From: Pyrodictiaceae archaeon | GTDB lineage: Archaea; Thermoproteota; Thermoprotei_A; Sulfolobales; Pyrodictiaceae | Direction of reading: 5' to 3' | Length of the DNA: 54,070 bases | NCBI GenBank assembly: GCA_027028845.1 | Contig: JALVHV010000144.1 | Location: 1-54,070, forward strand | Shown here: positions 12,182 through 50,449 of the stretch, in pieces | Position numbering within the stretch: the first letter of the stretch is position 1 | Layout: each line of letters opens with the position of its first letter | Notes under the pieces: generated by a model | Told to the model about the DNA's origin: nothing | Seen by the model: the letters and a program-made list of their open reading frames with translations, nothing else | The model's database searches: none | Made by a program: the position numbers and the translations under genes

Positions 12182-12265
12182 TGCCAATAACGACCTCTCC
12201 ACAAAAACTACGAAAACCCAAAGAAGGGGGTTAAAATGAGCCAAGCCCCGTCACTGATAACGAGA

Positions 12266-12560: not shown

Positions 12561-12700
12561 TTCCTTTCTAAGTAATTCCTACATGCCTCGTCCTTGGAGG
12601 AAATGTTCTGGGCACAAAGCATATATAGGGTCTTCGCGGCAAAAGCGCCTCTGGCCGAATCCTTGCCTAGAAGGAGGCCAAGAAGAGAATCGGGGGAACA

Positions 12701-13000: not shown

Positions 13001-13130
13001 CATAATGACAATGTAGTAGATGCGTGCACGCAGTTACTCATGTTACTAGCTAGGTAGTACTCGGCTTTCTGCCTATTTTGATAAAGACTTTAGACCCGTA
13101 TTCCTAGTAGTAATAGTTAATGGTGTTGGT

Positions 13131-13218
13131 GCGGGGGTGCCCGAGCCAGGTCGAAGGGGGCGGGCTTAAGACCCGCTGGCGTAGGCCGGCGTGGGTTCAA
13201 ATCCCACCCCCCGCACCA
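13131..13218 (+). tRNA. tRNA-Leu(TAA)
   Basis: GCGGG-CT-TAA-GA-CCCGC, variable arm, CCA. Confidence 0.97.
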
Positions 13219-13400
13219 TCCTCTTCCCTGTAGTTCTCGCATCTTGGGCTGGAGAGGCTTGCGTTAAGAACGCTGAATGTAGACTTGTCGATAACTGCTT
13301 AACACAAGAATATCATCAATACTGGTGCTGGGATAAAATTACTAAAAAAGTCTGTTATGTTGTTTTAGGTACTGGTTTATCATTGTACTTTTGTACTTTC

Positions 13401-13955
13401 CTAGTCTAGGTGTTCTCTTAGTATTTTCGTGGCTTCGTCGTAGAGTTGTGGTGGTTCTAAGCCTTTTAGCTCCTCTAGTTTCTTTGCTAGCTCCTCTTCT
13501 CTCAACGCGGTTCTTAGCCATGTTGTGAGGTACCCTGTTCGCAGAACGTAGCTAAGTTCTTCTGGCTCTACGAGGCCATAGACTACTGTGGCTGCTAGTT
13601 GGCGCTTGTTCTTAATCCTTAGTGGTACTACTGAGCCCTTGACTAGGAAGTAGAAGGGCTCTATGAGCTGCTCGCTGGGCTTAGGTGTCACCACCTCCTC
13701 TACTGGTTGTTCCTCGCTTGGCTTCTCCGCCTCAGCTGCCTCTGTTCCAAGGAGTTGTAGTGCTTTCTCAGTTATCTTTGCAACCGAGCCTACTCGCTCT
13801 ACGAGGCCGCTGCGCTCTAGCTCTGCTAAGTACTTCCTAACAGTTGATGAGCGAAGCCCCACGGTGGTTGCTATTGTCTGTATATCTGCTTCTTTTTTCT
13901 CGGCCAGGAGCTCCAGGATCCGCTTCTTTGACTCGGTTAGGTTCTCTAGGCTCAA
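13401..13955 (-). CDS. Winged-helix DNA-binding protein with DUF5752-like C-terminal domain
   Basis: wHTH (ILELL...IATTVGLRSSTVRKYLAELERSGLV), acidic linker, then PFYF...WLRTALREEELAKKL. Confidence 0.75.
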   Translation of the reverse strand: MSLENLTESKKRILELLAEKKEADIQTIATTVGLRSSTVRKYLAELERSGLVERVGSVAKITEKALQLLGTEAAEAEKPSEEQPVEEVVTPKPSEQLIEPFYFLVKGSVVPLRIKNKRQLAATVVYGLVEPEELSYVLRTGYLTTWLRTALREEELAKKLEELKGLEPPQLYDEATKILREHLD

Positions 13956-14035
13956 GGGAGGATACCCACTCTCTTTCCTTCCACTTACTCTCTCTAGCAG
14001 CAGAGATCTAGTTTAAAGATAATACGCCTCGAGCA

Positions 14036-15451: not shown

Positions 15452-15584
15452 TAGGTACCCCGGCTAAGGAATCGCCCTTGATAATGATAGAGAGATAGGA
15501 GTAACTAAGCCGAGAACTCAGCACCGATAATTGAAGCTAGCTCTAGATAAATCTCAGCGTGTGAGGCGGTAAGGGAAGAAGGTT

Positions 15585-15663
15585 TGGTGCGGCGGCCGGG
15601 ATTTGAACCCGGGATCACCGGCTTGGAAGGCCGGCGTCCTAGTCCAGGCTAGACGACCGCCGC
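15585..15663 (-). tRNA. tRNA-Gly(TCC)
   Basis: GCGGCGG acceptor, CCGGC-CT-TCC-AA-GCCGG, CCA. Confidence 0.97.
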
Positions 15664-15720
15664 TCCTCAAGCCCAATTACGAAGTCTTATACTCCCCTCC
15701 CAGGGGTATATTTGCCTTGG

Positions 15721-15787
15721 TGGTGCTGAGAAGAGGGTCTCTTGACCATCCCGGACGGGATGAAGATAGCCGGAAAAGCTGAGACCA
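15721..15787 (+). ncRNA. Candidate box C/D guide sRNA with variant C box (guide complementary to tRNA-Ser intron)
   Basis: C GTGCTGA 15723, 12-nt guide, D' TTGA 15742, hairpin CATCCC/GGGATG, C' ATGAAGA 15760, guide TAGCCGGAAAAG, D CTGA 15779, TGGT/ACCA ends. Confidence 0.55.
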
Positions 15788-15850
15788 GTATGGTCTTGTA
15801 AGCGGCAAGTCTTAAGAAGGGGAACCTATATCGCTGTAATCTTCACGGGT

Positions 15851-15925
15851 GCCGCCGTAGCTCAGCGGGAGAGCGCCCGGCTGAAGACCGGGCGGTCCGG
15901 GGTTCGAATCCCCGCGGCGGCACCA
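15851..15925 (+). tRNA. tRNA-Phe(GAA)
   Basis: GCCGCCG acceptor, CCCGG-CT-GAA-GA-CCGGG, GTTCGAATC, CCA. Confidence 0.97.
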
Positions 15926-36547: not shown

Positions 36548-37303
36548 ATGAACCAGCGCCCCTATGTCACGATATTCTCGACCATGACTATTGATGGACG
36601 CATAGCCTCCTCCACGAGATTTAGCGAGCTAAGCTGTAACTACGACCTGGCTAGGCTCCGGCTCCTAAGGGGCGCCCACGAAGCAGTAATGGTCGGAGCA
36701 AACACGATTATAATCGATGATCCTACGCTGCGTAAGCGACTAGAGCCCAGGACAACGAAGTACTACCGAGTAATCGTTGACGGAAAACTAAGAGTTAGCC
36801 TAAATCAACGCATTTTTCGCGAACCAGGGCCAAAGGTAATAGTAATAACAGCTAGTAATGACAAGGAGAAGATCAAGAAGATAAGAGAGCTCGGAGCAGA
36901 CGTCGTGAAAGTAGATACTCTTGGTGATAAAGGTGAAGTAGACCTAAGGGAAGCATTACAAATACTTGCAGAAAACTATGATATTAATAGCGTCCTCGTC
37001 GAAGGGGGAGGTGCACTGAACTACAGCCTTCTACGACAACGCGTCGTCGATGAACTAAGAGCAACAATAACGCCCTATGTATTTGGAGCCGGGGTAAGCA
37101 TTGTTAATGACTATCTGGGGACGGGGTTCCGTGATCGCTCCGAGTCCCCGAGGCTAAGGCTTAGTTGCGTAGAGCTCTGCCCTTGTGGACAATGCGTACA
37201 CGTCGCATATACATTGCTTAGTAAGTGCTGTGAGCCGCGGCTAAGGGAGCCGCCCATCGAGTTTTGCCTCTCGGAGAGACTAAGACGATTAGTGCAGAGC
37301 TAA
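36548..37303 (+). CDS. 2,5-diamino-6-ribosylamino-4(3H)-pyrimidinone 5'-phosphate reductase (RibD C-terminal / Rib7 type)
   Basis: MTIDGRIA, AVMVGANT..DDP.L, VLVEGGG. Confidence 0.88.
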   Translation: MNQRPYVTIFSTMTIDGRIASSTRFSELSCNYDLARLRLLRGAHEAVMVGANTIIIDDPTLRKRLEPRTTKYYRVIVDGKLRVSLNQRIFREPGPKVIVITASNDKEKIKKIRELGADVVKVDTLGDKGEVDLREALQILAENYDINSVLVEGGGALNYSLLRQRVVDELRATITPYVFGAGVSIVNDYLGTGFRDRSESPRLRLSCVELCPCGQCVHVAYTLLSKCCEPRLREPPIEFCLSERLRRLVQS

Positions 37304-37411
37304 AGCGTTTAGGGGAGCCTGGGCTGGAGTAGGGACTCGTAGATAATCCCTGGCCTCGCCGTGGTGCAGGGCACGTATTTGAAGCGGTTACCGAGGAGGC
37401 GCTTAGTAGCC

Positions 37412-38119
37412 ATGGACTCTGTACTAGAGAAGGCTATTCGGGCTCTCCGTCTAGGCAAGCCCGTCCTAATACACGATGATTATAGAAGGGAGAACGAAGT
37501 AGACTATGTTATTCACGCTTCGTTCGTCACGCCCGAGACCATCTATGAAATGAGGACGCTTGCAGGAGGCCTGATATGTTACTCTATGCCACTACTTGCT
37601 GGGAGAAAGCTGGGTCTCACATATGCCCACGAGATATATGCCTCAATACCAGAACTGGCTCCGCTAACGAGGCGCACACTAGGCTACGGCGACAAGCCAG
37701 CCTTCTCCATATGGGTGAACAGCGCCAGAGCCGAGACAGGCATAAGGGATAATGATAGAGCACTAACAATAAGAGAGCTAGACAGAGTCCTCGGCATGAT
37801 AATAAACGGTAGCATCGATGAAGCCAAGCGCTATTTCTACGAGAACTTCGTGGCCCCGGGCCACGTACCGATACTTCTGGGGAGAAAGCTAAGCGAGCGA
37901 AGAGGACACACCGAGCTATCTCTGCACCTAGCAATGCTTGCAGGACTAACACCATCAACTGTTATAGTTGAGATGCTTGACAAGGGAACAGCACTAAGCG
38001 TAGAGAAGGCTAGGAAAATCGCAGAGGAAAGAGGCCTTGTACTCCTCGAGGGAAGCCGGATAATAAGGGAGGCCGAGAACCTTGGCGAAGATCTGTATTG
38101 TAGATACAACCTTTGCTAG
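37412..38119 (+). CDS. ribB: 3,4-dihydroxy-2-butanone-4-phosphate synthase
   Basis: RENE.D, GGLIC, TGI.D.DR, FVAPGHV, RRGHTE, VEML; GAGGAGG RBS before ATG 37412. Confidence 0.92.
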   Translation: MDSVLEKAIRALRLGKPVLIHDDYRRENEVDYVIHASFVTPETIYEMRTLAGGLICYSMPLLAGRKLGLTYAHEIYASIPELAPLTRRTLGYGDKPAFSIWVNSARAETGIRDNDRALTIRELDRVLGMIINGSIDEAKRYFYENFVAPGHVPILLGRKLSERRGHTELSLHLAMLAGLTPSTVIVEMLDKGTALSVEKARKIAEERGLVLLEGSRIIREAENLGEDLYCRYNLC

Positions 38120-38549
38120 AGTAGACATGGCTAAGCACGCGATCGAGACTCTTCAGCTACTTATGCCGGACGCGGTAATAGTGCGAAGAACGGTACCCGG
38201 GATCAAGGACATACCTGTGGCGATAAAGCGGCTCATGAAGGAACAGGAATGCGAGGCAGGCATCGTCTTCGGCTGGGTGGGGAAAAGCCTCACCGACAAA
38301 ATCAGCTACGCAGTCTACTCCCTCGCAATACAGCTAGTCGAGCTAGAGCTAGAGAAGCCAATAATGGATGTAACAGTGCACGAGGACGAAACCAGCGACG
38401 AAAAAGAATTGTACAGGATAGCCGTGGATAGGGCAAAGAAGCACGCCGAGAACCTCTACTTATTGCTAAGAAACCCCGAGGAACTAACACGACGAGCAGG
38501 CACAGGGCGAAGACAAGGCTATCCTGACGCAGGCCCGATAATTCCTTAA
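38082..38549 (+). CDS. ribC: Archaeal riboflavin synthase
   Basis: IVDTTFARVDM, TVPGIKD, VHEDE, AGTGRRQG. Confidence 0.93.
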   Translation: MAKICIVDTTFARVDMAKHAIETLQLLMPDAVIVRRTVPGIKDIPVAIKRLMKEQECEAGIVFGWVGKSLTDKISYAVYSLAIQLVELELEKPIMDVTVHEDETSDEKELYRIAVDRAKKHAENLYLLLRNPEELTRRAGTGRRQGYPDAGPIIP

Positions 38550-38684: not shown

Positions 38685-39023
38685 ATGGGAAAGGGCTTGG
38701 CCCAGCAACTTTACTATCTCGCTGCTTTTATGCTAATATTGATAGCGTCCACTGCGTACTACATAGCAGCATCAATACTAGCCCCTAGACCTAGGAGACA
38801 AGGAGAAGCTACACTACCTTATGCATGTGGTGAAAAGGGCCGGGAAGCTAAGAGCCTTGACCCACCGTACCCCTTAGTATTAATAGTATTTACTATAGCA
38901 GAGTCGGTGCCCATAGCATCGTTCTTCTGTGTTACCCAGGATAGGCTCGCTTTGCTCCCATTGCTTGTAGCGGCTTTTGCCCCTCCCTTGTTAGTCACGG
39001 GGAGGAGGCATGAACGTTCTTGA
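38685..39023 (+). CDS. Hydrogenase membrane subunit, NuoA-like
   Basis: Three TMs, loop PYACGE, acidic residue in TM2. Confidence 0.7.
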   Translation: MGKGLAQQLYYLAAFMLILIASTAYYIAASILAPRPRRQGEATLPYACGEKGREAKSLDPPYPLVLIVFTIAESVPIASFFCVTQDRLALLPLLVAAFAPPLLVTGRRHERS

Positions 39024-39978
39024 GCTATTTGTGACTGCATTGATATATCCGGGCTTGTTGACAGCTGTTTCTCTTGCTCTAAGCTTTGAGGCTTTGAAGC
39101 GTAAAATTGAGGCACGTATGCAGAATAGAATGGGTCCTACCTACACGGGGCTCCGAGGACTGGCCCAGCCTCTCATAGACTTAGTAAAGCTCCTTGGAAA
39201 GGAAGACATAACTCCACTTACAATGCATGAAGCAGTTGCTGCTGCAGCACTTGTTTGGAGCATAAGTCTTGCTGTCTTTGCATGTCTCCTTCTGCCTTGG
39301 GGGCTTGGTGGCCTAGAAGATATGGGCTATAACGCTTTATTGGTACCCGTTTGTCTCTCTTTGGCAGCAGCACTTCTCGGCCTCGCATCACTATCTACTA
39401 GGAGCCCGTATAGCGTCATTGGCGGGCTTAGGTTCATAGGACTTCTTATGAGCTATGATATAGGCTTGATAAGCCTTGTAGGCGTCGCGTATGCTGCAAC
39501 GGGTTCCCTAAACATGGATGTTATTAGGGCTAAGCTTTGGGAAGGATTAGTGCATAAGCCTTTCCTCTTCCCCCTCTGGCTCCTCGCCCTTTTAGTAGGT
39601 TTTATTCTAGTTCAAGCGGATTTGGGAGAAGATCCCTTCACAATAGCTGAAGCCGAAACCGAGGTAGCTGGTGGATTTGAAGCCGAATTTTCCGGGAGAA
39701 AACTAGCATTCATGAGACTAGGTCACGAGGTACATGGTGTAACGGCTCTTCTCTTCTACGTATCCCTATTGCTAGCTCCACAGCCCTCTCGAGGAGTCTT
39801 TGCCATCATAAGTTTACTCGCTGTAGGCTTAGTTATAGCATTTTTATCGATAATTGTTGACGCATCAACACCCCGTATAAGACTCAAGGACATGATTAAG
39901 CTCTCCTGGGGCTACCTAGTACCCCTATCGATCCTCATCGCCTTCTTATCACTAATGTTAGGAGGTGCTGCCTCGTGA
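39010..39978 (+). CDS. Hydrogenase membrane subunit, NuoH-like
   Basis: RKIEARMQNRMGP, QPLIDLVKLLGKE, PF.IAEAETE..GG..AEFSG, PRIR. Confidence 0.92.
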   Translation: MNVLELFVTALIYPGLLTAVSLALSFEALKRKIEARMQNRMGPTYTGLRGLAQPLIDLVKLLGKEDITPLTMHEAVAAAALVWSISLAVFACLLLPWGLGGLEDMGYNALLVPVCLSLAAALLGLASLSTRSPYSVIGGLRFIGLLMSYDIGLISLVGVAYAATGSLNMDVIRAKLWEGLVHKPFLFPLWLLALLVGFILVQADLGEDPFTIAEAETEVAGGFEAEFSGRKLAFMRLGHEVHGVTALLFYVSLLLAPQPSRGVFAIISLLAVGLVIAFLSIIVDASTPRIRLKDMIKLSWGYLVPLSILIAFLSLMLGGAAS

Positions 39979-40406
39979 GCACAGCTGGCTTGCTCATAGG
40001 CTTTGTAGCAATTATATCGGCTATCTATGCCTCCTTGGCTAAGCGCGATGAAGCAGCTATAATAGCTACTAGTGTTGCGTTAATCTCTCTAGCACTGCTC
40101 ATGCTCGACATAGGAGCCTATGTGGCAGCTATCATGCAGATATCATTAGTAGCTGGTTTTACCGCTGCAATGATGTTCCTAGCCCCCAGGCTTGGTGGCA
40201 GAGAGCCAGGTGCTATGCCGATTGCCGGCATCTTTGCAGCAATTGTAATTACTCTAACCTTCGCTATAATCTCGTTACGCTTCACGTGTAGTATGCCCAG
40301 CCCCATTACTAGGTTAGGCGCCGTCCTTGTCGGGTTATCATCGATAATTGTTCTCGCCGCGTTTCTCCTAGTAAGAGTGCTTTTACAACGAGGTGACTTA
40401 GCGTGA
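39975..40406 (+). CDS. Hydrogenase membrane subunit, NuoJ-like
   Basis: Five TMs, GAYVAAIMQI; position between the H- and K-like genes. Confidence 0.65.
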   Translation: MSTAGLLIGFVAIISAIYASLAKRDEAAIIATSVALISLALLMLDIGAYVAAIMQISLVAGFTAAMMFLAPRLGGREPGAMPIAGIFAAIVITLTFAIISLRFTCSMPSPITRLGAVLVGLSSIIVLAAFLLVRVLLQRGDLA

Positions 40407-40708
40407 CCGGGGCTTGTCCGCTCTATGCCACAGTAATAGGTGTATTAATAGGAGCTGGCTTAGTCACGCTTACACGCTATAGTTCATTTCTTAGGGTACT
40501 TATCGGTATCGAACTCGTATCGGGAGCAGCCACAGCATCCATAGTCCTTGTAGGCGGTGATACAGGGCTCTATGTGTTCCTAGCCCTCATCGAAACCGTA
40601 ATGGCAGGCATTGCGGCTGCCGTCGCTTTCTCTGCTTCGCGGAGGAGAGATGTCACGACCATAGATGCTTTCTCCGAGGAGGTGAGAAGCCGTGATGAGT
40701 CCAGCTGA
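40403..40708 (+). CDS. Hydrogenase membrane subunit, NuoK/MrpC-like
   Basis: Three TMs with LIGIEL and IE acidic residues. Confidence 0.75.
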   Translation: MTGACPLYATVIGVLIGAGLVTLTRYSSFLRVLIGIELVSGAATASIVLVGGDTGLYVFLALIETVMAGIAAAVAFSASRRRDVTTIDAFSEEVRSRDESS

Positions 40709-42512
40709 TTACCTGGGATTACTCATCTTCCTACCATTATTGGCGTCGCCTTTAGCACTAGTACTTGGTAGAGCGATAGGGCGTCGCGCATCTGAGCTAG
40801 TAGCGCTTAGCGCATCCTTTGTCGTACTTATAGCATCAATACTGCTCTATCTAAGCAGCCTTGAAGGAGTCTATAATGTAGCCTCGATATACACCCCCTT
40901 TATCCCAGCCAAGGCCGTCTTCAGCGTAGTAGTTGATGACCTCTCAAAAACCTTTAGCATAATTATCGGCCTAATAGGGTTCCTAGTCATACTTTACTCA
41001 ATAAGCTACATGGAAAGAGACCCTGGTTATGCAAGGTACTATGCCTTCATGCTCTTATTCATAGCATCGATGCAGGGCCTCGTACTGACCAACAACATAG
41101 CCGCACTCTATGCATTCTGGGAGGGAGTAGGGCTATGCAGCTTCGCCTTAATAGGCCATTACTACGAGCGCCCAAGAGCTGGCATAGCAGGGGTAAAGGC
41201 CTTTGTCACAACTAGGCTAGGTGACGTAGTTTTCCTTGCAGGAATAGCATATACTTATATACATACACATACATTAAGCCTTGTAGCCCTCAAGGAGACA
41301 TCGCCTCATGTAGCCTCGGTATTCTTCGCCTCAGCCCTCATAGGGGCTATCGCGAAAAGTGCACAGCTTCCGCTTCATGTATGGCTACCAGACGCAATGG
41401 AGGGTCCAACACCAGTATCAGCATTAATACACGCAGCCACAATGGTTAAAGCAGGTGTCTATCTTGTAGCAAGACTCGTTTTATTACTCTCATCGCTTAT
41501 TGCATCAACGTACCTACCCAGCATCGTTATGTGGGTTGGTGCAATAACGGCTCTCTATGCTGCTCTATCAGCACTAGCTCAATATGATGCTAAGAGACTG
41601 CTAGCATACTCGACTATAAGCCAACTAGGCTACATATTTACCGCGCTAGGAGCAGCACTCGCGATTATAGGTAGCGTTGATACCGCGCTGGGCCACGTTA
41701 TAAGCCACGCAGTCTTCAAGGCCCTACTATTCCTCTGCGTAGGAGTAGTAATACATGAGCTAGAGCCCCTACTTGGCCCCGAGACAGCAAGGGATCTTAG
41801 GCGTACTGCAGGAGTTGCACGTAGATCACCTATTCTTGTCCTCAGCTTGTTCTGCGGTACTATGGCACTTGCAGGCATCCCACCGTTCAATGGCTTCTGG
41901 ACAAAGGACGAACTCATAATATTTGTAAGCAAAGCCTCTCTTTCTGCCTCCATAGTATTACTAATAACTTCGCTCATTACTGCCGCCTATAGCTTCAAAC
42001 TATTCTACTACCTGGTATTGGCCAGGCCCGAAAAAGAAGGCATTGAGGCTATAACGAGAGTACCAGTACCTATGGCAACCGCTCTCTTAGTTCTCTCATT
42101 CTTGACACTTGTATCCCCAATTCTAATAGGGCCGGGGCTTCATTTAAGCACGAATATAGCCTTCATGGGCATAGCCTTAGCGCTGGCAATAACCGGTATA
42201 GTACTAGTAGCCGAAGCTTATAGGAGAAGGCTCCTGGCGCCAAGATATATCTACTCAATGCTTCTAGAAGGCTTCTATATTGACAGGTTCTATGTAGATT
42301 ACCTTGTACCATCACTGCGCTTTGTCTTCACTTTACTCGGGATAGGCATGCTACGCGTAGTTGATGCGGGACTAGATACCTCCATTAAAATAATCGTTAG
42401 TGAACTTGAAGCCACGGTACCGAGAAGAAGCGGGAGAATGAGCACATATTATGCGCTTTATGCTCTTGGCATGGTTCTCCTCGTAATAGCGGCCTTTACG
42501 CTCCTGAGGTGA
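40695..42512 (+). CDS. Antiporter-like subunit, NuoL/MrpA type
   Basis: FWEGVG, AKSAQLPLHVWLPDAMEGPTPVSALIHAATMV, LAYSTISQLG, HAVFKA, lateral helix and final TM. Confidence 0.93.
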   Translation: MSPADYLGLLIFLPLLASPLALVLGRAIGRRASELVALSASFVVLIASILLYLSSLEGVYNVASIYTPFIPAKAVFSVVVDDLSKTFSIIIGLIGFLVILYSISYMERDPGYARYYAFMLLFIASMQGLVLTNNIAALYAFWEGVGLCSFALIGHYYERPRAGIAGVKAFVTTRLGDVVFLAGIAYTYIHTHTLSLVALKETSPHVASVFFASALIGAIAKSAQLPLHVWLPDAMEGPTPVSALIHAATMVKAGVYLVARLVLLLSSLIASTYLPSIVMWVGAITALYAALSALAQYDAKRLLAYSTISQLGYIFTALGAALAIIGSVDTALGHVISHAVFKALLFLCVGVVIHELEPLLGPETARDLRRTAGVARRSPILVLSLFCGTMALAGIPPFNGFWTKDELIIFVSKASLSASIVLLITSLITAAYSFKLFYYLVLARPEKEGIEAITRVPVPMATALLVLSFLTLVSPILIGPGLHLSTNIAFMGIALALAITGIVLVAEAYRRRLLAPRYIYSMLLEGFYIDRFYVDYLVPSLRFVFTLLGIGMLRVVDAGLDTSIKIIVSELEATVPRRSGRMSTYYALYALGMVLLVIAAFTLLR

Positions 42513-42516
42513 GAAC

Positions 42517-43788
42517 ATGTTGCTTGAACCAGAGCTTTCCCTAATCACGCTTACACTCATAGTACTAGTGTGCTCGCTTGTATCGGCGCTGCTACGAAGC
42601 AGGAAGCTCGTAGCAGCCTTATCATCGCTTGTTGCACTAATGCTAACAGCAGTACTTTTAATTACACAAAAAGGTAAAACTATTACTGTCGATGGTTTAC
42701 CTCTTCTCAGCTTCGATAAGCATAGTATTGCGATGCTTGTGCTTCTCCTAATATCATCTAGCCTTATCATAGCATTACTCTGGCGCGAAATAGATAATGT
42801 GGTTACCCCCCTCATACCTTGGACAATGTACGCGAGTATAATGATAGCCTTATCCATTAACCCGGCAATACTGATCCTAGGGTTAGAGCTTGGAGCATTA
42901 TCGATTACGGGCACATATCTCAGCCATAAGGGCTCTGAAGAATCTGCCGTGAAGTACTTCTTCACATCGATACTTGCAGGAGCACTAATAATAGCTGGAA
43001 CAGCCTTACTCATTTCAAACCATGTCTATAGCTTTACAGGTATCAGTACAGCAACTCCAAGCCTTATATTCGGGCTCACCTTCCTAATAACAGGTCTCGC
43101 ATTAGAAGTAGGCCTTGCACCATTCCACCCATGGCTACCCGACGTAGCTGCCAACGCACCCGTACTCGGAATAACGCTGGCTATACTCCTTGTCGATGCT
43201 CCCACCCTTTACGTGTTCTTTAGATTAATAAGCGCGGCTAAGGCAATGGGGCAAATACTTGCCTGGATTCTCGCCATACTAGCTGCGGCTAGTATGGCTA
43301 TTGGCGAGTTCTCAGCATTAGTACAGACAAGCATACGAAGAATGCTTGGCTTTAGCATGGTAAGCGATGCTGGTTACACCTTACTTCTTGGAGTTGCTTG
43401 TGCGCTTAGCGGAATAGTATCTTTTAATGTCGTGATATATTTCATAACATCAAGTAACATGGCATTAGCGCTGGCGCTGGCTTCTGCGAGAGATAAAGAA
43501 ACTATTGGCCCGATTGTGCCAGCTTTGCTTAGCCTAATGGGGCTTCCACCGTTTTACGGGTTTACAGCGAAGCTTTCAGTAATAACGTTCTTTGCTAGAA
43601 TAGGGTATCCGTGGATGGCAGTTATTGCTAGCTTCTTCTTCCTAGTAGCAGCGGCTTATGTAATGAGGTACTTGATGACCCTTAGCCGTGACTCTGTACT
43701 AAAAGGATATAATATTTTCTCCCTTATATATGTCACGATTCTTCTCCTTCTAGGCCTCTATCCAGGGATAATTAATCTCGTAGGGTGA
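42517..43788 (+). CDS. Antiporter-like subunit, NuoN type
   Basis: GLEL, ESAVKYF, GLAPFHPWLPDV, RRMLGFS, LSLMGLPPF.GF.AK. Confidence 0.85.
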   Translation: MLLEPELSLITLTLIVLVCSLVSALLRSRKLVAALSSLVALMLTAVLLITQKGKTITVDGLPLLSFDKHSIAMLVLLLISSSLIIALLWREIDNVVTPLIPWTMYASIMIALSINPAILILGLELGALSITGTYLSHKGSEESAVKYFFTSILAGALIIAGTALLISNHVYSFTGISTATPSLIFGLTFLITGLALEVGLAPFHPWLPDVAANAPVLGITLAILLVDAPTLYVFFRLISAAKAMGQILAWILAILAAASMAIGEFSALVQTSIRRMLGFSMVSDAGYTLLLGVACALSGIVSFNVVIYFITSSNMALALALASARDKETIGPIVPALLSLMGLPPFYGFTAKLSVITFFARIGYPWMAVIASFFFLVAAAYVMRYLMTLSRDSVLKGYNIFSLIYVTILLLLGLYPGIINLVG

Positions 43789-45173
43789 TGGGGATGTTAA
43801 GCACCTTGATATGGTTCGTAGCCTCTATGATGGCAGCGTTTTCAGCCATAGTAACAAGCATCTACAATAAGCTAAGAGCAACCGTGATACTCATTATTTT
43901 GTCGACTCTACTAGGAATACTAGGCTACAAAGGGGGATCCTACTGCTATTATTGGTTAAAGCAACTAGGCTTACCTATGTGCATAGCAGTTGATGGTGCA
44001 TCTGTTCTCCTAGTACTACTCAGCGGAATTGTCTCTGCAGCTGCTCTCGTAGCTGCCAGGATGCTGAACGAGGAGAGGGAACAGCTCGGACTAGCGATAA
44101 CGTCTATACACTTTACCATGATAGGGCTAGCCTATGCCTATAGCCTACCTTTATTCTACATCTTTTGGGAACTAATGCTACTAGCATCGTCATTCCTAGT
44201 ATACCTCTGGGATAAAAGAATTGCAATACAATTCTTTATATATATGCATGCAGGCTCACTACTACTCCTAGTCGCGATAGGTATACTTGCATCAGAAAAA
44301 GCAACGATCTTCGGCTCATCAGTACTCGTGACAGGTTATGGGCTCGTAGCTTTCTCGCTTATATTGGTAGCTTTTGCAATAAAGCTTGGAGTGTTTCCGT
44401 TTCATACCTGGCTTCCCAGGACATACACCTCTTTACCCGGTTCAAGCGCAGCTGTTATCTCAGGTATAGTAACGAGTGCGGGAGCATACGGCCTCTATAG
44501 ACTGCTGTATGGCATTAAGTGGCTCAACCTGCCCCAAAGCGTTGCGTTTACCGGTTTTTGGCTTGGTGCTACTTCAGCAATCGTAGGAGCGTTAGCGGCA
44601 CTACTAGCACGTCGTCTGGGCTTTATAGCATCTTATAGCAGTATTAGTCATGGCGGCTTCATGTACGCGGGGTTGGTGAGCCTTAGTAGGCTTGCTGCGA
44701 CAGGCGCGCTATACATAATGTTCGCTCACGGAATTGTGAAGCCCTTATTCTTCCTCCTAGCATCGATACTGGCTAAACAAGCGGGAAGCGATGATATACG
44801 GGATATGGGTCTTTATGCGAAAACAATGCCGTTAACAGCATTCATAGGGTTTGTTACAGCCCTAAGCCTAGCAGGTGCACCTGTCTTTGCTTTCTTCCCG
44901 GGAGAAATAACAGTAATAATAGCCCTAGCTGAAGCTGCGTTAAACCCGATAGCTGTAGCAATACTAGTTACCGCGTTATTCCTTGCAGCAGCCTATGCTC
45001 TTAGGTACTGGCTTCGTGTATTCTGGAGACCAGTCGTCATGGTGCCTCGTCGTCTGCCTAGTGAGCCTCCGAGGAGACTTCTACTCGTTCCCCTCACTCT
45101 AGCGATTATAGCCATTGTAGCCGGTGTTCTTCCAGCCCCGATTTTCTCACTTCTGGGGGCGATGCTTCCTTGA
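43785..45173 (+). CDS. Antiporter-like subunit, NuoM/MrpD type
   Basis: FYIFWELM, IKLGVFPFHTWLP, YSSISHGG, FAHG, FPGE. Confidence 0.88.
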   Translation: MMGMLSTLIWFVASMMAAFSAIVTSIYNKLRATVILIILSTLLGILGYKGGSYCYYWLKQLGLPMCIAVDGASVLLVLLSGIVSAAALVAARMLNEEREQLGLAITSIHFTMIGLAYAYSLPLFYIFWELMLLASSFLVYLWDKRIAIQFFIYMHAGSLLLLVAIGILASEKATIFGSSVLVTGYGLVAFSLILVAFAIKLGVFPFHTWLPRTYTSLPGSSAAVISGIVTSAGAYGLYRLLYGIKWLNLPQSVAFTGFWLGATSAIVGALAALLARRLGFIASYSSISHGGFMYAGLVSLSRLAATGALYIMFAHGIVKPLFFLLASILAKQAGSDDIRDMGLYAKTMPLTAFIGFVTALSLAGAPVFAFFPGEITVIIALAEAALNPIAVAILVTALFLAAAYALRYWLRVFWRPVVMVPRRLPSEPPRRLLLVPLTLAIIAIVAGVLPAPIFSLLGAMLP

Positions 45174-45715
45174 CCCGCTCAGAGCCGGGTAACACGTTAT
45201 CAAAAAGAGATAGTAAAAATATTGAAAATGGGGATAGTATGGAGAAAAACAGTAGAGAAAAACCTCCGCACACTGTTAGGCTTATTTCAAGGTCGCCATG
45301 GATACTACACTTCAATACTGGCGCGTGCAATGGTTGCGACATCGAGGTCTTAGCAGCCCTTACTCCTCTCTACGACCCAGAGCGTTTCGGAGTAAAGCTG
45401 GCCCCTAATCCACGCCATGCAGATATCATTATCGTGACGGGTGCCTTGACCAAAAAGGCGGCCGAGAGACTGAAGCGATTATATGAGCAGACCCCTAACC
45501 CTAAGTACGTTATCGCCGTAGGTACTTGCGCGATAAGCGGGCACGCGTTTCGGCATAGCTACAGCGTTATCGGTGGAGCCGACAAGGTGGTTCCAGTAGA
45601 CGTCTATGTACCCGGTTGTCCTCCGAGACCTGATGCCATCATAGAGGCTATCGTAAAGCTCCTCAAACGCGAAAGAATTGAGGCTGAGAGGCTTGAGTCT
45701 GAGGTTGAAATTTAA
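45170..45715 (+). CDS. [NiFe]-hydrogenase small subunit (NuoB-like)
   Basis: GACNGCDIE, PRHAD, GTCAISGH, VPGCPPRP. The start may be ATG 45239. Confidence 0.93.
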   Translation: MTRSEPGNTLSKRDSKNIENGDSMEKNSREKPPHTVRLISRSPWILHFNTGACNGCDIEVLAALTPLYDPERFGVKLAPNPRHADIIIVTGALTKKAAERLKRLYEQTPNPKYVIAVGTCAISGHAFRHSYSVIGGADKVVPVDVYVPGCPPRPDAIIEAIVKLLKRERIEAERLESEVEI

Positions 45716-46139
45716 GGATAAGGAATTAGAGCTTAAACAAGTCGAACCCAGCAGGTATGAGGTGGTGCTAGAGAGACAGAGCGACATCGTAGATTTCGCA
45801 AAAGCTCTCATAGATGGGACTGAGGGAGAGGTTTACCTAATGAGCATTAATGCTATAGATTACCCCGACAAGGGTGTAATAGAGCTACGCTATCTCTTCT
45901 GGTCCCTAAAGCATAAATCAATAATAGATGCGAGAACCCGTGTTCCTAGAGATAAGCCAATTGCCGAGTCTCTTATCGAGGTTGTCCCAGGTGCTAAGCC
46001 TTATGAGCAGGAGATCTACGACCTATTTGGCGTAGTGTTTAGGGGCAATAAGTGGCTTCGCGACGGCTTCTTTAAGCCACCAGACATGGGTGCAACGAAG
46101 CCCCTACTTAAGCAGGCTCCTCCAAGTAGGAAGGGGTGA
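45678..46139 (+). CDS. NuoC-like hydrogenase subunit
   Basis: IELRYLF, SL..VVPGA.PYEQEIYDLFGVVFRG, KPLLK. Confidence 0.85.
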   Translation: MRLRGLSLRLKFKDKELELKQVEPSRYEVVLERQSDIVDFAKALIDGTEGEVYLMSINAIDYPDKGVIELRYLFWSLKHKSIIDARTRVPRDKPIAESLIEVVPGAKPYEQEIYDLFGVVFRGNKWLRDGFFKPPDMGATKPLLKQAPPSRKG

Positions 46140-46145
46140 AAGGCG

Positions 46146-47309
46146 ATGCCTGTAATTGAGATACCAGTAGGTCCTCAACACCCTGCTCTTCATGAACCGA
46201 TACTACTACGCGTCCGTGTTCGCGGCGAGGAGGTTGTAGGAGTAGACATAGTGACTGGATACAACCATAGAGGTATCGAGTGGCTTGCTGAGAGAAATAC
46301 ATGGCTAAAAACACTATATATAGCGACCCGTGTATGCGGCATATGCAACTTGATGCATGCAACATGCTATGTGCAAGCCCTCGAGAAACTAAACAGTATT
46401 AAGCCTCCTGAAAGAGCGCTTGCTCTAAGAACCATAGCTATGGAGCTAGAAAGGCTCCACAGCCACATGTTACTTGCCGCAGTAATGGCCGAAATACTGG
46501 GCTTTGAGAGCCTCTTTATGCTCATAATGAGGGATAGAGAGAAGATAATGTTGCTTAAGGAACTTGTCACTGGTAACCGAGTCTTATCTGACTACGTGTG
46601 GCCGGGCGGTGTTCGAAGAGACATTGATGACAGAATAGTAGAGAAGATAAAACGGACCCTAGACTATATTGAGGAACGAATACTATACTACAAGGACGTC
46701 TACGAGAACGATAAACTCCTAAGACTTAGACTCGAAGACATAGGCGTGATTAAGTACAATGAAGCCCTCTCATACGGCTTAGTTGGACCAACAGCTAGAG
46801 CTTCTGGGGTACAAATCGATGTAAGAAAAGACACGCCCTATGCCTGGTACGACGAGGTAGACTTTAAGATAGTAACTCGCAGAGAAGGGGATTGTTTAGC
46901 TAGAGTACTTGTACGTTTAGAGGAATCACTTGAATCGATAAAGATAATAAGACAAGCAATTGATAAGCTACCTAAAGGCCCCATTACCGCGCTAAAGATT
47001 CCTCCACGTACCTTTAGGCAGGGAGAAGCTATATCTCGAGTCGAGGCTCCCCGAGGCGAGCTCATATATCACGTAGTGAGCAGAGGGGGGAGAAACCCCT
47101 ATAGGGTCAAGATAAGAACACCAAGCTTTACAAATATACTAAATAGCGTGTTTGCTTACCGTGATGCAACGTTATCCGATGTGCCAGTAATACTTGCGAG
47201 CTTTGATCCCTGCATATCGTGCATGGAGAGAATAATGGTTGTAGATGAACGAAGTGGTGAGCAACGATTGGAGCCTGTTCGGAAGATTGTAAGAAGGAAG
47301 AGGAGGTGA
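46146..47309 (+). CDS. Group 4 [NiFe]-hydrogenase large subunit
   Basis: GPQHP, GYNHRGIE, L1 RVCGIC, EAPRGE, L2 DPCISCMER followed by a C-terminal extension. Confidence 0.95.
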   Translation: MPVIEIPVGPQHPALHEPILLRVRVRGEEVVGVDIVTGYNHRGIEWLAERNTWLKTLYIATRVCGICNLMHATCYVQALEKLNSIKPPERALALRTIAMELERLHSHMLLAAVMAEILGFESLFMLIMRDREKIMLLKELVTGNRVLSDYVWPGGVRRDIDDRIVEKIKRTLDYIEERILYYKDVYENDKLLRLRLEDIGVIKYNEALSYGLVGPTARASGVQIDVRKDTPYAWYDEVDFKIVTRREGDCLARVLVRLEESLESIKIIRQAIDKLPKGPITALKIPPRTFRQGEAISRVEAPRGELIYHVVSRGGRNPYRVKIRTPSFTNILNSVFAYRDATLSDVPVILASFDPCISCMERIMVVDERSGEQRLEPVRKIVRRKRR

Positions 47310-47316
47310 AGACGTA

Positions 47317-47700
47317 GTGCTTAAACTGGCTCGTGAGCTCCTCAAAAATCTACTAAGAAGACCCGTTACCATAGAGTATGGGATGAAAGCTAAGCCTAAT
47401 CCAACCGAGAGGTACCGGGGATTACACATAGTTAATCCCGATAAGTGCATAAGTTGTAGCCTATGCGCCATTGAGTGTCCTACTGGAGCTATAAAGATGA
47501 CAGAAATAGTGTATGGGGGAAAGAAGAAGAAAATACCAGTAATAGATTATGGTTTATGTGTATTCTGCTATCATTGCGTCGATATATGCCCGAAGAATGC
47601 CTACAATACATCTAATGAAATCCCGCCGCCAGTATTTGAGAGAACACTGCTAAGAGGAGATCCGCGTGAACCCAGGCCCTGGAGAACAGAAGAAGTGTAA
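47317..47700 (+). CDS. 2x[4Fe-4S] subunit, NuoI-like
   Basis: RYRG, CISCSLCAIECP and CVFCYHCVDICP. Confidence 0.92.
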   Translation: MLKLARELLKNLLRRPVTIEYGMKAKPNPTERYRGLHIVNPDKCISCSLCAIECPTGAIKMTEIVYGGKKKKIPVIDYGLCVFCYHCVDICPKNAYNTSNEIPPPVFERTLLRGDPREPRPWRTEEV

Positions 47701-48118
47701 GATACTCGTAATAGGTGTCGGTTCGCCTCTTCGCAGGGATGATGCAGCTGCTCTCTACTTGGTAGAGAAGCTCGGACGGAGAGGATATAGCTGTGTACTC
47801 GAATGCCCAATGGGGGTTGAGCTATGCGCTCATCGTATAAGAGAAATTAATCCCGAATTGCTGATAATAGTTGATGCAGCTTTAGGCGTAGAGGCAGGTA
47901 ACGTAGCCGTAATTAATAAGCCTCCTTCTCAGGGTCTTTGGACAACTCATAACATAGATCCTGAATTAATGCATAGGTACATATCCTCGTATGCTAATAA
48001 GGTCGTTTACTTGCTACTCGGAGTCAAAGATGTGGGAATAGGCGAGGGCTTATCAGTAGAGGCGCGCCGAGCCGTACAGAAGGCTCTAAAGCTTCTCGAG
48101 AAAATAATCGCTGCCTAA
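47666..48118 (+). CDS. Hydrogenase maturation endopeptidase (HycI-like)
   Basis: VIGVGSPLRRDDA, IIVDAA, TTH, GEGLS. Confidence 0.9.
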   Translation: MNPGPGEQKKCKILVIGVGSPLRRDDAAALYLVEKLGRRGYSCVLECPMGVELCAHRIREINPELLIIVDAALGVEAGNVAVINKPPSQGLWTTHNIDPELMHRYISSYANKVVYLLLGVKDVGIGEGLSVEARRAVQKALKLLEKIIAA

Positions 48119-48177
48119 GGAATCTTAGAGTAAACTTTTTGGGCCTATATCGCGGCGATGCGCTTGGGGTAGGAAGA

Positions 48178-48639
48178 GTGGCAGAGGCAATTAGGCTTGG
48201 CATAGTTGTCTCAGAGTTCAATTATGACGTAACGTACCTTATGCTTCAGCGAGCTATGAATCATGCTAAGTTCCTTGGCGCAGTAGTGGCCTATGTAGTT
48301 AAGGCTCCCGGTGCATATGATATACCATTGCTTGTTGAGAAGCTCTTGCGCAAAGACGATGTAGATGCTGTCGTAGCGCTAGGAGCCATTATCACGGGTG
48401 CTACTAAGCATGACGAGGTCATAGCTCATCAAGTTGCTAGGAAGCTAGTGGATCTAGCTGAGAAGTATGGGAAGCCCGTAACCCTAGGGATCTCCGGGCC
48501 AGGGATGAATAGAATGCAAGCCCTTGAGAGAGTAGATGACTATGCTAGGAGGGCCGTAGAGGCCGCGATCAAGCTAGCTCGCCGCATGAAGGCATTAGAG
48601 GAGGCAAAGTTCAGCGGGGAAACAGTGTTCATTGAGTAA
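48178..48639 (+). CDS. ribH: 6,7-dimethyl-8-ribityllumazine synthase
   Basis: IVVSEFN, PGAYDIP, LGAIITGATKHDE, KPVTLG; GTG start at 48178. Confidence 0.95.
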   Translation: MAEAIRLGIVVSEFNYDVTYLMLQRAMNHAKFLGAVVAYVVKAPGAYDIPLLVEKLLRKDDVDAVVALGAIITGATKHDEVIAHQVARKLVDLAEKYGKPVTLGISGPGMNRMQALERVDDYARRAVEAAIKLARRMKALEEAKFSGETVFIE

Positions 48640-49792
48640 CCGCGTATTTTTCGAAGCACTCTATGCTATAAACCCGGGCGATGAGAGCATAGAGCTAGTC
48701 ACTAGGCCGTGCATAGAGATAAACGAGGGCGTCATAAGTGGTTTTTCACCGGGATGCCCGCCGGGAGCCAAGAAGCTCCCTGTAGCAGTTCTTCCCGGGC
48801 TGTGTAATGCTCATCTCCATTTACTGGACTATGCTATAGCTGAGACTGGCGAGAATAAACGCCTAGAAGACCTAGTGGAGCTACCAAGGGGGCTAAAGTA
48901 TAGGCTCCTATCAAGGCTGAGCCTTGATACCTTGGAAGAAAGGCTCTCTATTGCAGCCACCAATATACGGAACCACGGAACTCTCTTTCTCGGTGTGTAT
49001 GCTGAGCTAGGCCAGATAGGAGCTAGTCTTGTTGCCCGCGTTCTCGACAGGTATAGGCTAAGCTTCCGCGTGCTCGTACAACCAAATAAGAAAGTGTATG
49101 CAGAATACAAGGAGCTCCTAGAAAGATATGGAGGTGTTGGTCTCGACACGGTCTTCGACCTTTCATCGCCGGAGCTAGTAGATCTCGTACAGCTTGCTCG
49201 CCGGGTCCATGGATATGTTCACGTCCACGTATCGGAGACCAGGGAGCTTTACGAGAAAGGGGATTACAAAGTAGCTCTCGAGGCTAAGCCACACGCAGCT
49301 GTGCATCTAACCATGCTTGGCGCCGACGAGTTAATGCAAGTAGCCAGGGAGGGTATAGGTATCATCTTCTGTCCTCGCTCAAACATATATCACACAGGTA
49401 GGCTTCCCCGACTCGATCTCCTCCCTGAGCTAATCGCTGAGACTAATGTGGCTCTCGGAACAGATAACGCGGCATGGATACCGCCATTTGTGGCCGAGGA
49501 GGCATCGTATGCCTACTTGTCCGTGCACCCCGTTTCCCGGAGCAAGGCAAGGGAACTAGCCGAGGCATTGCTGCTGAGCATCACTTCTAGTTGCGTTAGA
49601 CTCCTAGGCCTTTGGAGCAAGGAATACGACTCCCTATCGCTGGGTGCGTCACTGGTTCTTATACCAGAGCTTAGCTGGAGTAACGACCCCGTCACGACGA
49701 TTATTAAGAGAATGCAATCCTACAAGGTACTAGGAGCCCCGCCTGGCGAGGCTACACGTGTAATCCGCGAGCTCCTTGGCGAGGAAATCTAG
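48632..49792 (+). CDS. Metal-dependent amidohydrolase family protein
   Basis: PGLCNAHLH, HVHVSE, VH, CPRSN, LGTDN. Confidence 0.85.
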   Translation: MSNRVFFEALYAINPGDESIELVTRPCIEINEGVISGFSPGCPPGAKKLPVAVLPGLCNAHLHLLDYAIAETGENKRLEDLVELPRGLKYRLLSRLSLDTLEERLSIAATNIRNHGTLFLGVYAELGQIGASLVARVLDRYRLSFRVLVQPNKKVYAEYKELLERYGGVGLDTVFDLSSPELVDLVQLARRVHGYVHVHVSETRELYEKGDYKVALEAKPHAAVHLTMLGADELMQVAREGIGIIFCPRSNIYHTGRLPRLDLLPELIAETNVALGTDNAAWIPPFVAEEASYAYLSVHPVSRSKARELAEALLLSITSSCVRLLGLWSKEYDSLSLGASLVLIPELSWSNDPVTTIIKRMQSYKVLGAPPGEATRVIRELLGEEI

Positions 49793-50449
49793 AAGCTCCT
49801 CCCCGAGCTCTCTCGAGGCAATCACTTCCTCGTCGGGGTAGAGGCCGGGAACATCTCTATGAACCCACGGGGTATGTCTGGGTTCTCGTTGCTTACTCGT
49901 CTTAAGAGCATTGATAACGTCCTCTTTCCCGGCCTCCCTGACCCCTATGCTATAGCCACATGCGAGGAGGAGGCTAGCCTCCACTGGGTCAGCGTGCACT
50001 AATCCTATCCTAATGCCGTAACGCTTCTCTAGGTAACTAATGACCCTATCCCATGAGTTGAAAACAGCTACGCTGAAGCCCTCAGCTCGCAGCATCCTAG
50101 CGGCCACGTAGGCAACTGGATAAACCCCTCCGTGGAAAACGGCGAGTACCAGACCCTTACTCCACTCAAGCAGGCTCCTAGAGACTTCTACTAGGTACCT
50201 GGTGAACGTATCCGGCTTGGCTGTCACGCGGGGAATACTGTGCTCTATTGAGACAGTGTACGGGATAACCGGTGCCACGAGCGCATCGGGGCAGCTGGTG
50301 TCTGGAACAGTTCTCTCCGTGACACAGCTTGCTATGAGCGTATCCGTGCCAAGGGGTAGGACTCCATGGTTTTCGAGAGAACCTAGTGGGAGAATAACTA
50401 CGCGACCAACGGAGTCGCGACCCCGTAGCACTAGTAAATGCTCCTTCAT
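49730..50449 (-). CDS. Creatininase family protein (possible ArfB formamide hydrolase of riboflavin synthesis)
   Basis: LPLGSLENHG.LPLGTD, S.EH, HGG, HA..VE; riboflavin gene context. Confidence 0.8.
   Translation of the reverse strand: MKEHLLVLRGRDSVGRVVILPLGSLENHGVLPLGTDTLIASCVTERTVPDTSCPDALVAPVIPYTVSIEHSIPRVTAKPDTFTRYLVEVSRSLLEWSKGLVLAVFHGGVYPVAYVAARMLRAEGFSVAVFNSWDRVISYLEKRYGIRIGLVHADPVEASLLLACGYSIGVREAGKEDVINALKTSKQREPRHTPWVHRDVPGLYPDEEVIASRELGEELLDFLAKELADYTCSLARRGS

What the first reader, a model, noticed from the sequence alone, without database searches (positions are those of the whole stretch)
38685..48118. True [NiFe]-hydrogenase carrying a complete 11-subunit complex-I complement (A,H,J,K,L,N,M,B,C,D,I) plus its own protease
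Seen: the D-like subunit keeps all four Ni-binding Cys (RVCGIC, DPCISC) and a C-terminal extension, and a HycI-like protease follows. The membrane arm has NuoA-, J- and K-like genes and three distinct antiporter subunits. No formate/CO dehydrogenase, N-module or MrpBEFG-type genes are present in the cluster. Known: group 4 hydrogenases and complex I are homologous; Ech and Mbh have different membrane arms; Fpo-like hydrogenases (group 4g / Hfo-type) are known mainly from genomes. Inference: a ferredoxin-linked, ion-pumping H2 enzyme that looks like a hydrogenase/complex I intermediate in a crenarchaeon.
Basis: partly seen in the sequence, partly recalled or inferred. Interest (0 to 1): 0.75.

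Follow-up and report, generated by a model that had tools for sequence, protein, structure and literature searches.

The report
Hydrogenase built like respiratory complex I
These twelve archaeal genes encode a nickel hydrogenase attached to a full complex-I-type membrane arm; it likely links ferredoxin and hydrogen gas to ion pumping, is a kind already described from genomes but never tested, and appears to be a hybrid of parts from two enzyme lineages.

Summary
Confirmed. Twelve packed + strand genes encode A,H,J,K,L,N,M,B,C,D,I and a hydrogenase protease. D keeps both Ni motifs plus a 25-residue tail; B has the hydrogenase CxxC. A and J hit no library profile alone but are NuoA/NuoJ homologues by profile comparison (98.7%, 95.8%). 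No dehydrogenase, N-module or Mrp gene is in the cluster, and the genome has a separate Ni-less Nuo operon.

The kind is known: Loh et al. 2021 described 11-subunit Hfo hydrogenases, including a near-identical Pyrodictium delaneyi cluster, none assayed. This scan also reported that cluster on other DNA (e1-3075786).

New here:
(1) D nests (100/100) among enzymes that mostly carry an Mbh/Mrp arm, while the arm is Hfo-type. AU tests reject one shared history, so this is likely a module-swapped hybrid rather than a preserved intermediate.
(2) N has an acidic central axis (TM8 Lys to Asp, TM10 His to Asp), conserved in related Hfo arms.
(3) The cluster sits between ribC and ribH, which are adjacent in 4 of 4 relatives.

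Likely function: ferredoxin-to-H2 disposal pumping about 1-2 ions.

The parts
38685..39023 (+). A: NuoA/HfoA-like subunit (112 aa) with a YACGE loop; Glu at the conserved TM2 acid position
   Evidence: No direct library hit; hhalign 98.7% to NuoA; 10 of 16 relatives hit PF00507; profile finds ND3/NuoA in PDB
39010..39978 (+). H: NuoH-like membrane anchor (322 aa)
   Evidence: PF00146 E 1.4e-56; groups with Hfo-type H, not MbhM
39975..40406 (+). J: divergent NuoJ-like subunit (143 aa, five predicted helices)
   Evidence: hhalign 95.8% over the first 75 columns; 3 of 9 relatives hit PF00499; AF2 model has five helices and weak NuoJ top hits
40403..40708 (+). K: NuoK-like subunit (101 aa) with both membrane Glu motifs (IGIELV, ALIETV)
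   Evidence: PF00420 E 7.5e-5, below cut-off; NF004319 NuoK E 0.0055; alignment
40692..42512 (+). L: full-length NuoL-like antiporter subunit (606 aa) with the canonical charged axis
   Evidence: TIGR01974 above cut-off over 9-600; E144, K229 and K399 equivalents kept; H334 and K342 equivalents read from the HVISHAVFK motif
42517..43788 (+). N: NuoN-like subunit (423 aa) with an acidic central axis: E124, E197, D227, D284, K352
   Evidence: TIGR01770 best; AF2 and Foldseek give NuoN, TM 0.86; residue tally
43785..45173 (+). M: NuoM-like subunit (462 aa); TM5 Glu, TM7 Lys and TM12 Glu kept, TM8 Lys replaced by Ser
   Evidence: TIGR01972 best; NuoM clade
45170..45715 (+). B: hydrogenase small subunit / NuoB-like, CNGC motif (the true start may be downstream)
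   Evidence: PF01058; best PDB hit MbhJ, E 1.5e-52
45678..46139 (+). C: NuoC/MbhK-like subunit (153 aa)
   Evidence: PF00329 E 2.4e-20
46146..47309 (+). D: [NiFe] large subunit (387 aa) with GPQHPALHEP, L1 RVCGICNLMH, L2 DPCISCMER and a 25-residue tail
   Evidence: L1/L2 patterns as given in PMC7886697
47317..47700 (+). I: 2x[4Fe-4S] NuoI-like subunit (127 aa), the predicted ferredoxin entry point
   Evidence: Fer4 families and NuoI/FpoI models; two CxxCxxCxxxCP motifs
47666..48118 (+). HycI-type hydrogenase maturation endopeptidase (150 aa)
   Evidence: TIGR00072 above cut-off; TIGR00142 E 3e-12, below cut-off
38082..38549 (+). Left flank: lumazine-synthase-family gene, read as archaeal riboflavin synthase ribC (name from recall)
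   Evidence: PF00885; adjacent to ribH in 4 of 4 relatives
48139..48639 (+). Right flank: lumazine synthase ribH
   Evidence: PF00885 E 7e-37

Best explanation
The cluster encodes an 11-subunit, complex-I-shaped [NiFe]-hydrogenase of the Hfo type with its own maturation protease, which likely oxidises reduced ferredoxin, evolves H2 and pumps a small number of ions across the membrane. Shown: the gene set, the four Ni-binding Cys, the tail and protease, the CxxC small subunit, three distinct L/M/N antiporter subunits, and the absence of any input module. Inferred: electrons pass ferredoxin to I to B to the NiFe site in D, and coupling runs through H/A/J/K into N-M-L as in complex I. Only about 1-2 ions per H2 can be moved, because the ferredoxin/H2 span cannot pay for four. 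Inferred history: an Hfo-type arm and a B-C-D-I cassette of the kind that Desulfurococcales Mbh enzymes use were joined by module exchange, and the operon was later inserted between ribC and ribH in this genus.
For: Architecture and motifs.

D is not needed as complex I here: the genome has a separate Nuo-like operon with a tandem-CC B and a Ni-less D (contigs C64 and C40).

Maturation genes HypA, HypB, HypF and HypD are present.

Ferredoxin producers: 5 AOR-family and 4 POR-family matches. No match to PF11794, the family I used from recall as a 4-hydroxybutyryl-CoA dehydratase marker. This fits a peptide fermenter.

P. delaneyi proteome tables for H2-respiring cells list one Nuo-labelled run (Pyrde_1472-1481) and no second set under the labels I searched.

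Energetics: 12 kJ per 2 electrons for MBH against 81 for complex I (PMC8165549). My estimate is at most 2.6 ions from 1 bar down to 1 Pa H2 at 25 C, and at most 1.9 at 95 C, with assumed potentials.

History: of 37 locus rows with D at 50% identity or more, 22 carry an Mbh arm, 7 a Nuo-type arm and 8 no arm in the stretch. D sits in a 100/100 clade with the Mbh-arm enzymes. AU p is 8e-6 and 1e-8 against grouping D by arm type and 1e-73 against H following one D pairing. One search shows the identity split.
Against: No activity, expression or ion data exist for this or any Hfo.

The genome also has a second, group-1-sized hydrogenase large subunit (652-aa frame) and a Nuo-like complex, so H2-driven ferredoxin reduction is possible.

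HypC and HypE were not found. The genome is 87% complete and hypD and hypF sit at contig ends.

The G033 ortholog has lost the first Ni Cys (RVFGIC), so the cluster can decay.

An AU test holding all H subunits of the D clade together was not rejected (p 0.084). The sister locus L102 has an Hfo arm with a B-C-D-I cassette, so the direction of the swap is not fixed.

Loh et al. place the P. delaneyi D in 4g-6, apart from Mbh-arm 4g-5. I could not see their figure, and their named references are not identified in my trees.

The proteome reading rests on annotation labels only.
Confidence: 0.6

Rival explanations
1. It is the same enzyme but works mainly in reverse: it spends the ion gradient to reduce ferredoxin with H2 for biosynthesis, and three antiporter modules help push that uphill step.
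For: Loh et al. propose this direction for bathyarchaeal Hfo. The genome has a second hydrogenase large subunit and a Nuo-like complex. P. delaneyi is H2-dependent. A multi-ion arm suits the uphill direction.
Against: Many ferredoxin-reducing catabolic enzymes are present and the one autotrophy marker I tested was not found. No second Nuo or hydrogenase-4 labels appear in the H2-grown P. delaneyi proteome tables. The closest catalytic relatives have Mbh-type arms, the arrangement proposed to evolve H2 in the fermenter Thermosphaera.
Confidence: 0.27
2. It is a preserved ancestral intermediate: arm and catalytic cassette descended together, and the many Mbh-arm relatives are the derived ones that replaced their arm.
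For: L102 is sister to the whole D clade (97/96) and to the window-type H clade (100/99), and it has both the B-C-D-I cassette and an A-H-J-K-N-L-M arm. The H test was not rejected.
Against: Nuo-arm D sequences are interleaved with Mbh-arm D sequences, while each arm type is one clade in H. Reading the tree, this needs about five independent gains of a monophyletic Mbh arm against three changes otherwise. Inner supports are only 88-93.
Confidence: 0.3
3. It is a quinone- or sulfur-reducing complex I / MBS-like enzyme whose Ni cysteines are vestigial.
For: D scores near the NuoD cut-off (355 against 360) and keeps a GPQHP loop. P. delaneyi annotators called such a cluster a second Nuo.
Against: All four Cys, the L1 His, the L2 DPC..C.ER pattern, the tail, the adjacent protease and the CxxC in B are kept. 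Best PDB hits are MbhL and MbhJ. True Nuo D sequences in the same set lack all of these motifs.
Confidence: 0.05

Closest known systems
Hfo / Hfo-like Fpo-like 11-subunit [NiFe]-hydrogenases of group 4g (Loh et al. 2021, PMC7886697), especially the Pyrodictium delaneyi cluster
   Same: Same 11 subunit types, Ni motifs, and no N-module, FpoFO or Na+ module. P. delaneyi strain Hulk has a second 'Nuo' cluster listed as B-D, L-N and I, which fits the L-N-M-B-C-D-I run here. An earlier scan report flags a look-alike P. delaneyi operon.
   Different: Order is A-H-J-K-L-N-M-B-C-D-I, not the A-B-C-D-H-I-J-K-L-M-N order seen in L095, L096 and L111. D is only 44-46% identical to those. This copy sits inside the riboflavin operon and carries an adjacent protease. 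I did not align it to a named P. delaneyi record.
Mbh-type hydrogenases of Desulfurococcales (Thermosphaera aggregans type, 4g-5 in Loh et al.) and Pyrococcus MBH (6CFW)
   Same: Nearest catalytic cassette: D 53-60% identical, same B-C-D-I order and GPQHPA[LV]HEP loop. MbhL and MbhJ are the best PDB hits.
   Different: Those carry MrpF/G/B/C/E, MbhD and one antiporter. This cluster has none of MrpB/E/F/G but has A, J, K and three antiporters. Equating my Mbh-arm loci with 4g-5 is an inference (13 genes, as in Tagg_0624-0636).
11-subunit complex I-like enzymes (archaeal Nuo-like, Fpo, NDH-1)
   Same: Full A,B,C,D,H,I,J,K,L,M,N set; L, M and N group with E. coli NuoL, NuoM and NuoN.
   Different: Those lack the Ni ligands and use a tandem CC in B. 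Here N has Asp instead of the TM8 Lys that 4 of 4 Nuo N sequences keep.
Heimdallarchaeia complex I-like group 4 hydrogenases (4j/4m/4p/4q; bioRxiv 10.1101/2024.07.04.601786)
   Same: NiFe NuoD on a complex-I-like frame, predicted to reduce protons.
   Different: Described as missing one or more antiporter subunits; this cluster has all three.

Membership tests
Group 4 [NiFe]-hydrogenase | L1 C[GS][ILV]C[AGNS]xxH and L2 [DE][PL]Cx[AGST]Cx[DE][RL] motifs in the large subunit | tested here: met
   RVCGICNLMH and DPCISCMER; patterns
Group 4 [NiFe]-hydrogenase | Small subunit with CxxC, plus H-, C- and I-like partners and at least one antiporter subunit | tested here: met
Group 4 [NiFe]-hydrogenase | Maturation machinery (Hyp proteins, endopeptidase, cleavable tail) | tested here: inconclusive
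   Protease, tail and HypA/B/D/F found; HypC and HypE not found in the 87%-complete genome
Group 4 [NiFe]-hydrogenase | H2 evolution or uptake activity with a NiFe centre | not testable with these tools
   Needs biochemistry
Hfo (Fpo-like hydrogenase) | The 11 subunits A,B,C,D,H,I,J,K,L,M,N with a Ni-binding D | tested here: met
   J is the weakest
Hfo (Fpo-like hydrogenase) | No FpoFO/NuoEFG input module and no Mbh Na+ module | tested here: met
Hfo (Fpo-like hydrogenase) | Fpo/Nuo gene order, as in strict bathyarchaeal Hfo | tested here: not met
   Order is A H J K L N M B C D I, so it is filed as Hfo-like (Pyrodictium type), not as Bathyarchaeia Hfo
Hfo (Fpo-like hydrogenase) | Large subunit in HydDB 4g, lineage 4g-6 | tested here: inconclusive
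   HydDB not available and no named references in my trees; D nests with Mbh-arm enzymes rather than Fpo-order Hfo
Mbh (4d / 4g-5) | Mrp-type Na+ module (MrpB, E, F, G) and a single antiporter subunit | tested here: not met
   Absent from the cluster and not found in the genome
Complex I / Fpo / NDH (quinone or methanophenazine reductase) | D without Ni ligands and B with tandem CC | tested here: not met
   contrast the genome's own Nuo operon
Formate hydrogenlyase / Coo hydrogenase | Linked formate or CO dehydrogenase, HycB/CooF-type subunit | tested here: not met

The most novel reading that the evidence does not exclude
This is a natural hybrid: an Mbh-lineage [NiFe] catalytic cassette grafted onto a complete three-antiporter complex I arm, whose N subunit has a charge-inverted acidic central axis (Glu/Asp/Asp in place of Lys/Lys/His) conserved across related Hfo arms. 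That axis would either uncouple N or switch its ion, letting a low-energy ferredoxin/H2 reaction drive a full-length arm. It would be a thermostable natural test of whether the number of antiporter subunits sets pumping stoichiometry in complex I.
Probability: 0.3. Interest if true: 0.68.

Novelty: new member of a known kind. Interest (0 to 1): 0.42.

Why it matters
Complex I is thought to descend from energy-converting hydrogenases, and Hfo-type enzymes are the closest architectural link, yet none had been assayed as of PMC7886697.

An enzyme with three antiporter modules but energy for only about 1-2 ions makes a long-standing question directly testable: does each antiporter subunit pump, and how is stoichiometry set? 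Orthologs at 72-73% D identity occur in two complete genomes of the same family.

The split ancestry of cassette and arm also warns that classifying group 4 hydrogenases by the large subunit alone does not predict the membrane arm, and that 'missing link' clusters can be later hybrids.

Tried and rejected
- Direct Pfam/NCBIfam scans of A and J: no hit; resolved only through relatives.
- Foldseek on the J model: nothing at E 0.001 or better.
- Loss of the TM8 Lys in M and TM7 Lys-to-Glu in N as peculiar to this cluster: rejected, both occur in archaeal Nuo-like subunits too. Only the TM8 and TM10 acids of N were confined to hydrogenase-type arms in my set.
- AU test on H holding the whole D clade together: not rejected.
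- Boundary repeats, tRNA or mobile genes marking the insertion: none seen. The promoter/terminator scan was at chance level and is not suited to archaea.
- Sequencing runs: no RNA holder was listed.
- Cluster look-up gave no protein names.
- PF01750 found nothing in the genome, not even the cluster's own protease, so it says nothing about other proteases.
- Literature: seven searches turned up no listed paper reporting biochemistry of an Hfo, the arm swap or the acidic N axis. The library lacks most subscription journals, and I could not see figures or bioRxiv supplements.
- No complex prediction was run, since textbook pairs would pass by likeness to solved structures.


Full report
Observation. 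The stretch 38685-48118 holds twelve + strand ORFs that overlap or lie within 7 bp of each other. Library scans assign H, K (weak), L, N, M, B, C, D, I and a hydrogenase endopeptidase. D carries RVCGICNLMH and DPCISCMER, matching the L1/L2 patterns quoted in PMC7886697, followed by 25 more residues. Its best solved relative is MbhL. B has CNGC and is closest to MbhJ.

The small genes. The first and third ORFs hit nothing directly. An alignment of 16 positional relatives of the first matches NuoA at 98.7%, 10 of 16 members hit PF00507, and its profile finds ND3/NuoA chains far ahead of MbhI. The third matches NuoJ over its first three helices (95.8%) and 3 of 9 relatives hit PF00499. Its model has five helices and ranks NuoJ first, though only at E 0.012; that model's alignment included Nuo J rows. 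L, M and N fall with E. coli NuoL, NuoM and NuoN in a quick tree, and the N model fits NuoN at TM 0.86.

Genome context. The genome also has a conventional Nuo-like operon with a tandem-CC B and a Ni-less D (C64 and C40) and pieces of a third arm (C110, C27). It has a second hydrogenase large subunit (652-aa frame), HypA/B/F and HypD. HypC and HypE were not found (genome 87% complete). There are 5 AOR-family and 4 POR-family matches and no PF11794 match.

Insertion. The cluster is 46.9% GC against about 50-51% for its flanks and lies between ribC and ribH. Those two genes are 53-109 bp apart in 4 of 4 relatives where ribH was found (5 genomes searched). One of them is a complete genome of the same genus whose best D match lacks Ni ligands (G003). 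G004 shares the insertion, while G015, G019 and G033 hold the same gene order elsewhere. No boundary repeats or tRNA mark the site.

Distribution. The N ortholog was found in 6 of 29 genomes of the family (4 of 12 high-quality ones). Across 227 genomes of the order, 100 have a D relative at E 1e-115 or better. Only 7 pass an N profile at 1e-90, of which 6 hold the window-type locus; the other hits look like ordinary NuoN. That profile was built from these genomes, so distant copies could be missed.

What is known. PMC7886697 (section 8 read whole, other passages; figures not seen) defines Hfo as an 11-subunit Fpo-like [NiFe]-hydrogenase. It says P. delaneyi and Ca. Methanomethylicus have almost identical clusters and that no 4g enzyme has been characterised. 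PMC5556600 (passages) lists a second 'Nuo' cluster in P. delaneyi Hulk with B-D, L-N and I. An earlier report of this scan reached the same reading on P. delaneyi DNA; it is unchecked AI text and not independent evidence. The bioRxiv Asgard paper (passages) describes complex-I-like group 4 hydrogenases with shorter arms. PMC13582414 (passages) finds 4g polyphyletic. My own sampling found several Fpo-order clusters with Ni-binding D elsewhere in the phylum (40 loci fetched from 131 genomes with an L hit). The kind is therefore known from genomes.

Split ancestry, by similarity. Of 37 locus rows with D at 50% identity or more, 22 carry an Mbh/Mrp arm, 7 a Nuo-type arm and 8 no arm in the fetched stretch; some rows are the same genome (arm genes verified by Pfam on L007). 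Three genomes of the last group have an Mbh arm elsewhere. B, C, D and I score higher against Mbh-arm loci than against Fpo-order Hfo loci, while H, L, M and N mostly do the reverse (N against L113 is a tie).

Split ancestry, by trees. In a careful tree of 34 of the 81 D sequences, the window sits in a 15-row clade (100/100) with Mbh-arm enzymes, with L102 as sister (97/96). Holding Nuo-arm D sequences together is rejected (p 8e-6; p 1e-8); these groups were set by arm type but named after a first tree was seen. In H, each arm type is one clade, and making H follow the L006/G026 pairing of the D tree is rejected. Holding all H of the D clade together is not rejected (p 0.084). Cassette and arm have thus been exchanged within this group. 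The shorter reading is that the window-type arm took a cassette from Mbh-type enzymes; G033 holds both types. Because L102 has an Hfo arm, the opposite direction is not excluded. Loh et al. put the P. delaneyi D in 4g-6, and I could not compare with their figure.

Central axis. L keeps the canonical residues. M lacks the TM8 Lys, as many archaeal M subunits do. In N, 12 of 12 sequences from window-type and related Hfo arms have Glu at TM5 and TM7, Asp or Glu at TM8 and Lys at TM12, and 10 of 12 have Asp at TM10. In contrast, 4 of 4 Nuo N sequences keep the TM8 Lys. One of the 12 (L108) had no D in the fetched stretch, other Hfo lineages keep a TM8 Lys, and the sequences are kin. Conservation argues against decay, but the function is unknown. 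Helix numbers are from recalled complex I numbering mapped through E. coli positions.

Mechanism. By analogy with MBH and complex I (established knowledge), ferredoxin would dock at I and electrons would pass through B to the NiFe site, with coupling through H/A/J/K into N-M-L. PMC8165549 (abstract and passages) gives 12 kJ per 2 electrons for MBH against 81 for complex I. My estimate, with assumed ferredoxin potentials and a 180 mV gradient, allows at most 2.6 ions. So either few ions are pumped during H2 evolution, or the enzyme runs uphill. I favour H2 evolution for three reasons. The genome looks like a ferredoxin-rich fermenter. The closest cassettes have the Mbh arrangement proposed for H2 evolution in Thermosphaera (PMC3035292 passages). 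And the H2-grown P. delaneyi proteome tables show only one Nuo-labelled run (PMC8105010 passages and supplement rows found by term search). That last point is weak because it depends on labels.

Verdict. The feature is real and correctly read. It is a new member of the Hfo-like kind already described from genomes and still untested. The hybrid ancestry, the acidic N axis and the insertion into the riboflavin operon are added here; I did not find them in seven literature searches of a library that lacks most subscription journals. Interest 0.42.

Noticed in passing
L090:1-11019 (G003); partial counterparts in own genome C110 and C27, and L092 (G001): A co-oriented run cooF-cooS(PF03063)-B-C-D-H-I-J-K-L-N-M whose D lacks the Ni motifs (RVCFMD ... 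DMCIGGTER, one Cys at each site) and is closest to Nqo4/NuoD in PDB: a candidate CO dehydrogenase-fed complex-I-like quinone or sulfur reductase. In the window's genome the N/M part lies near a CooC-like gene (read from sequence); its B, C, D and cooS were not found.
   Followed up: partly
L080:1599-2774 (G033): The ortholog of D has RVFGIC, so the first Ni cysteine is replaced, in a genome that also has an intact Mbh-arm copy (L089). Decay or a sequence error.
   Followed up: partly
window 36548-38549 and 48139-50449: Riboflavin operon (RibD_C, DHBP synthase, two lumazine-synthase-family genes, an amidohydrolase and a convergent creatininase-family gene), split by the hydrogenase here but intact in four relatives. 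Earlier scan notes propose the amidohydrolase as the pyrimidine deaminase.
   Followed up: partly
L102 (G326): An A-H-J-K-N-L-M arm transcribed divergently from a B-C-D-I cassette; sister to the window's lineage in both the D and H trees.
   Followed up: yes
L091, L118 against L113, L122, L131: L and M subunits of crenarchaeal Ni-less Nuo-like complexes nest among L and M of Ni-containing Hfo clusters rather than with bacterial NuoL/M in a quick tree, hinting at further arm exchange between hydrogenases and complex I.
   Followed up: no
L140-L142 (G030, G040, G026): Mbh-type arm operons separated from their B-C-D-I cassette (about 10 kb in G030, different contigs in the other two).
   Followed up: partly
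window 10881-15925: Five tRNA genes (Leu, Val, Leu, Gly, Phe), far from the cluster.
   Followed up: no
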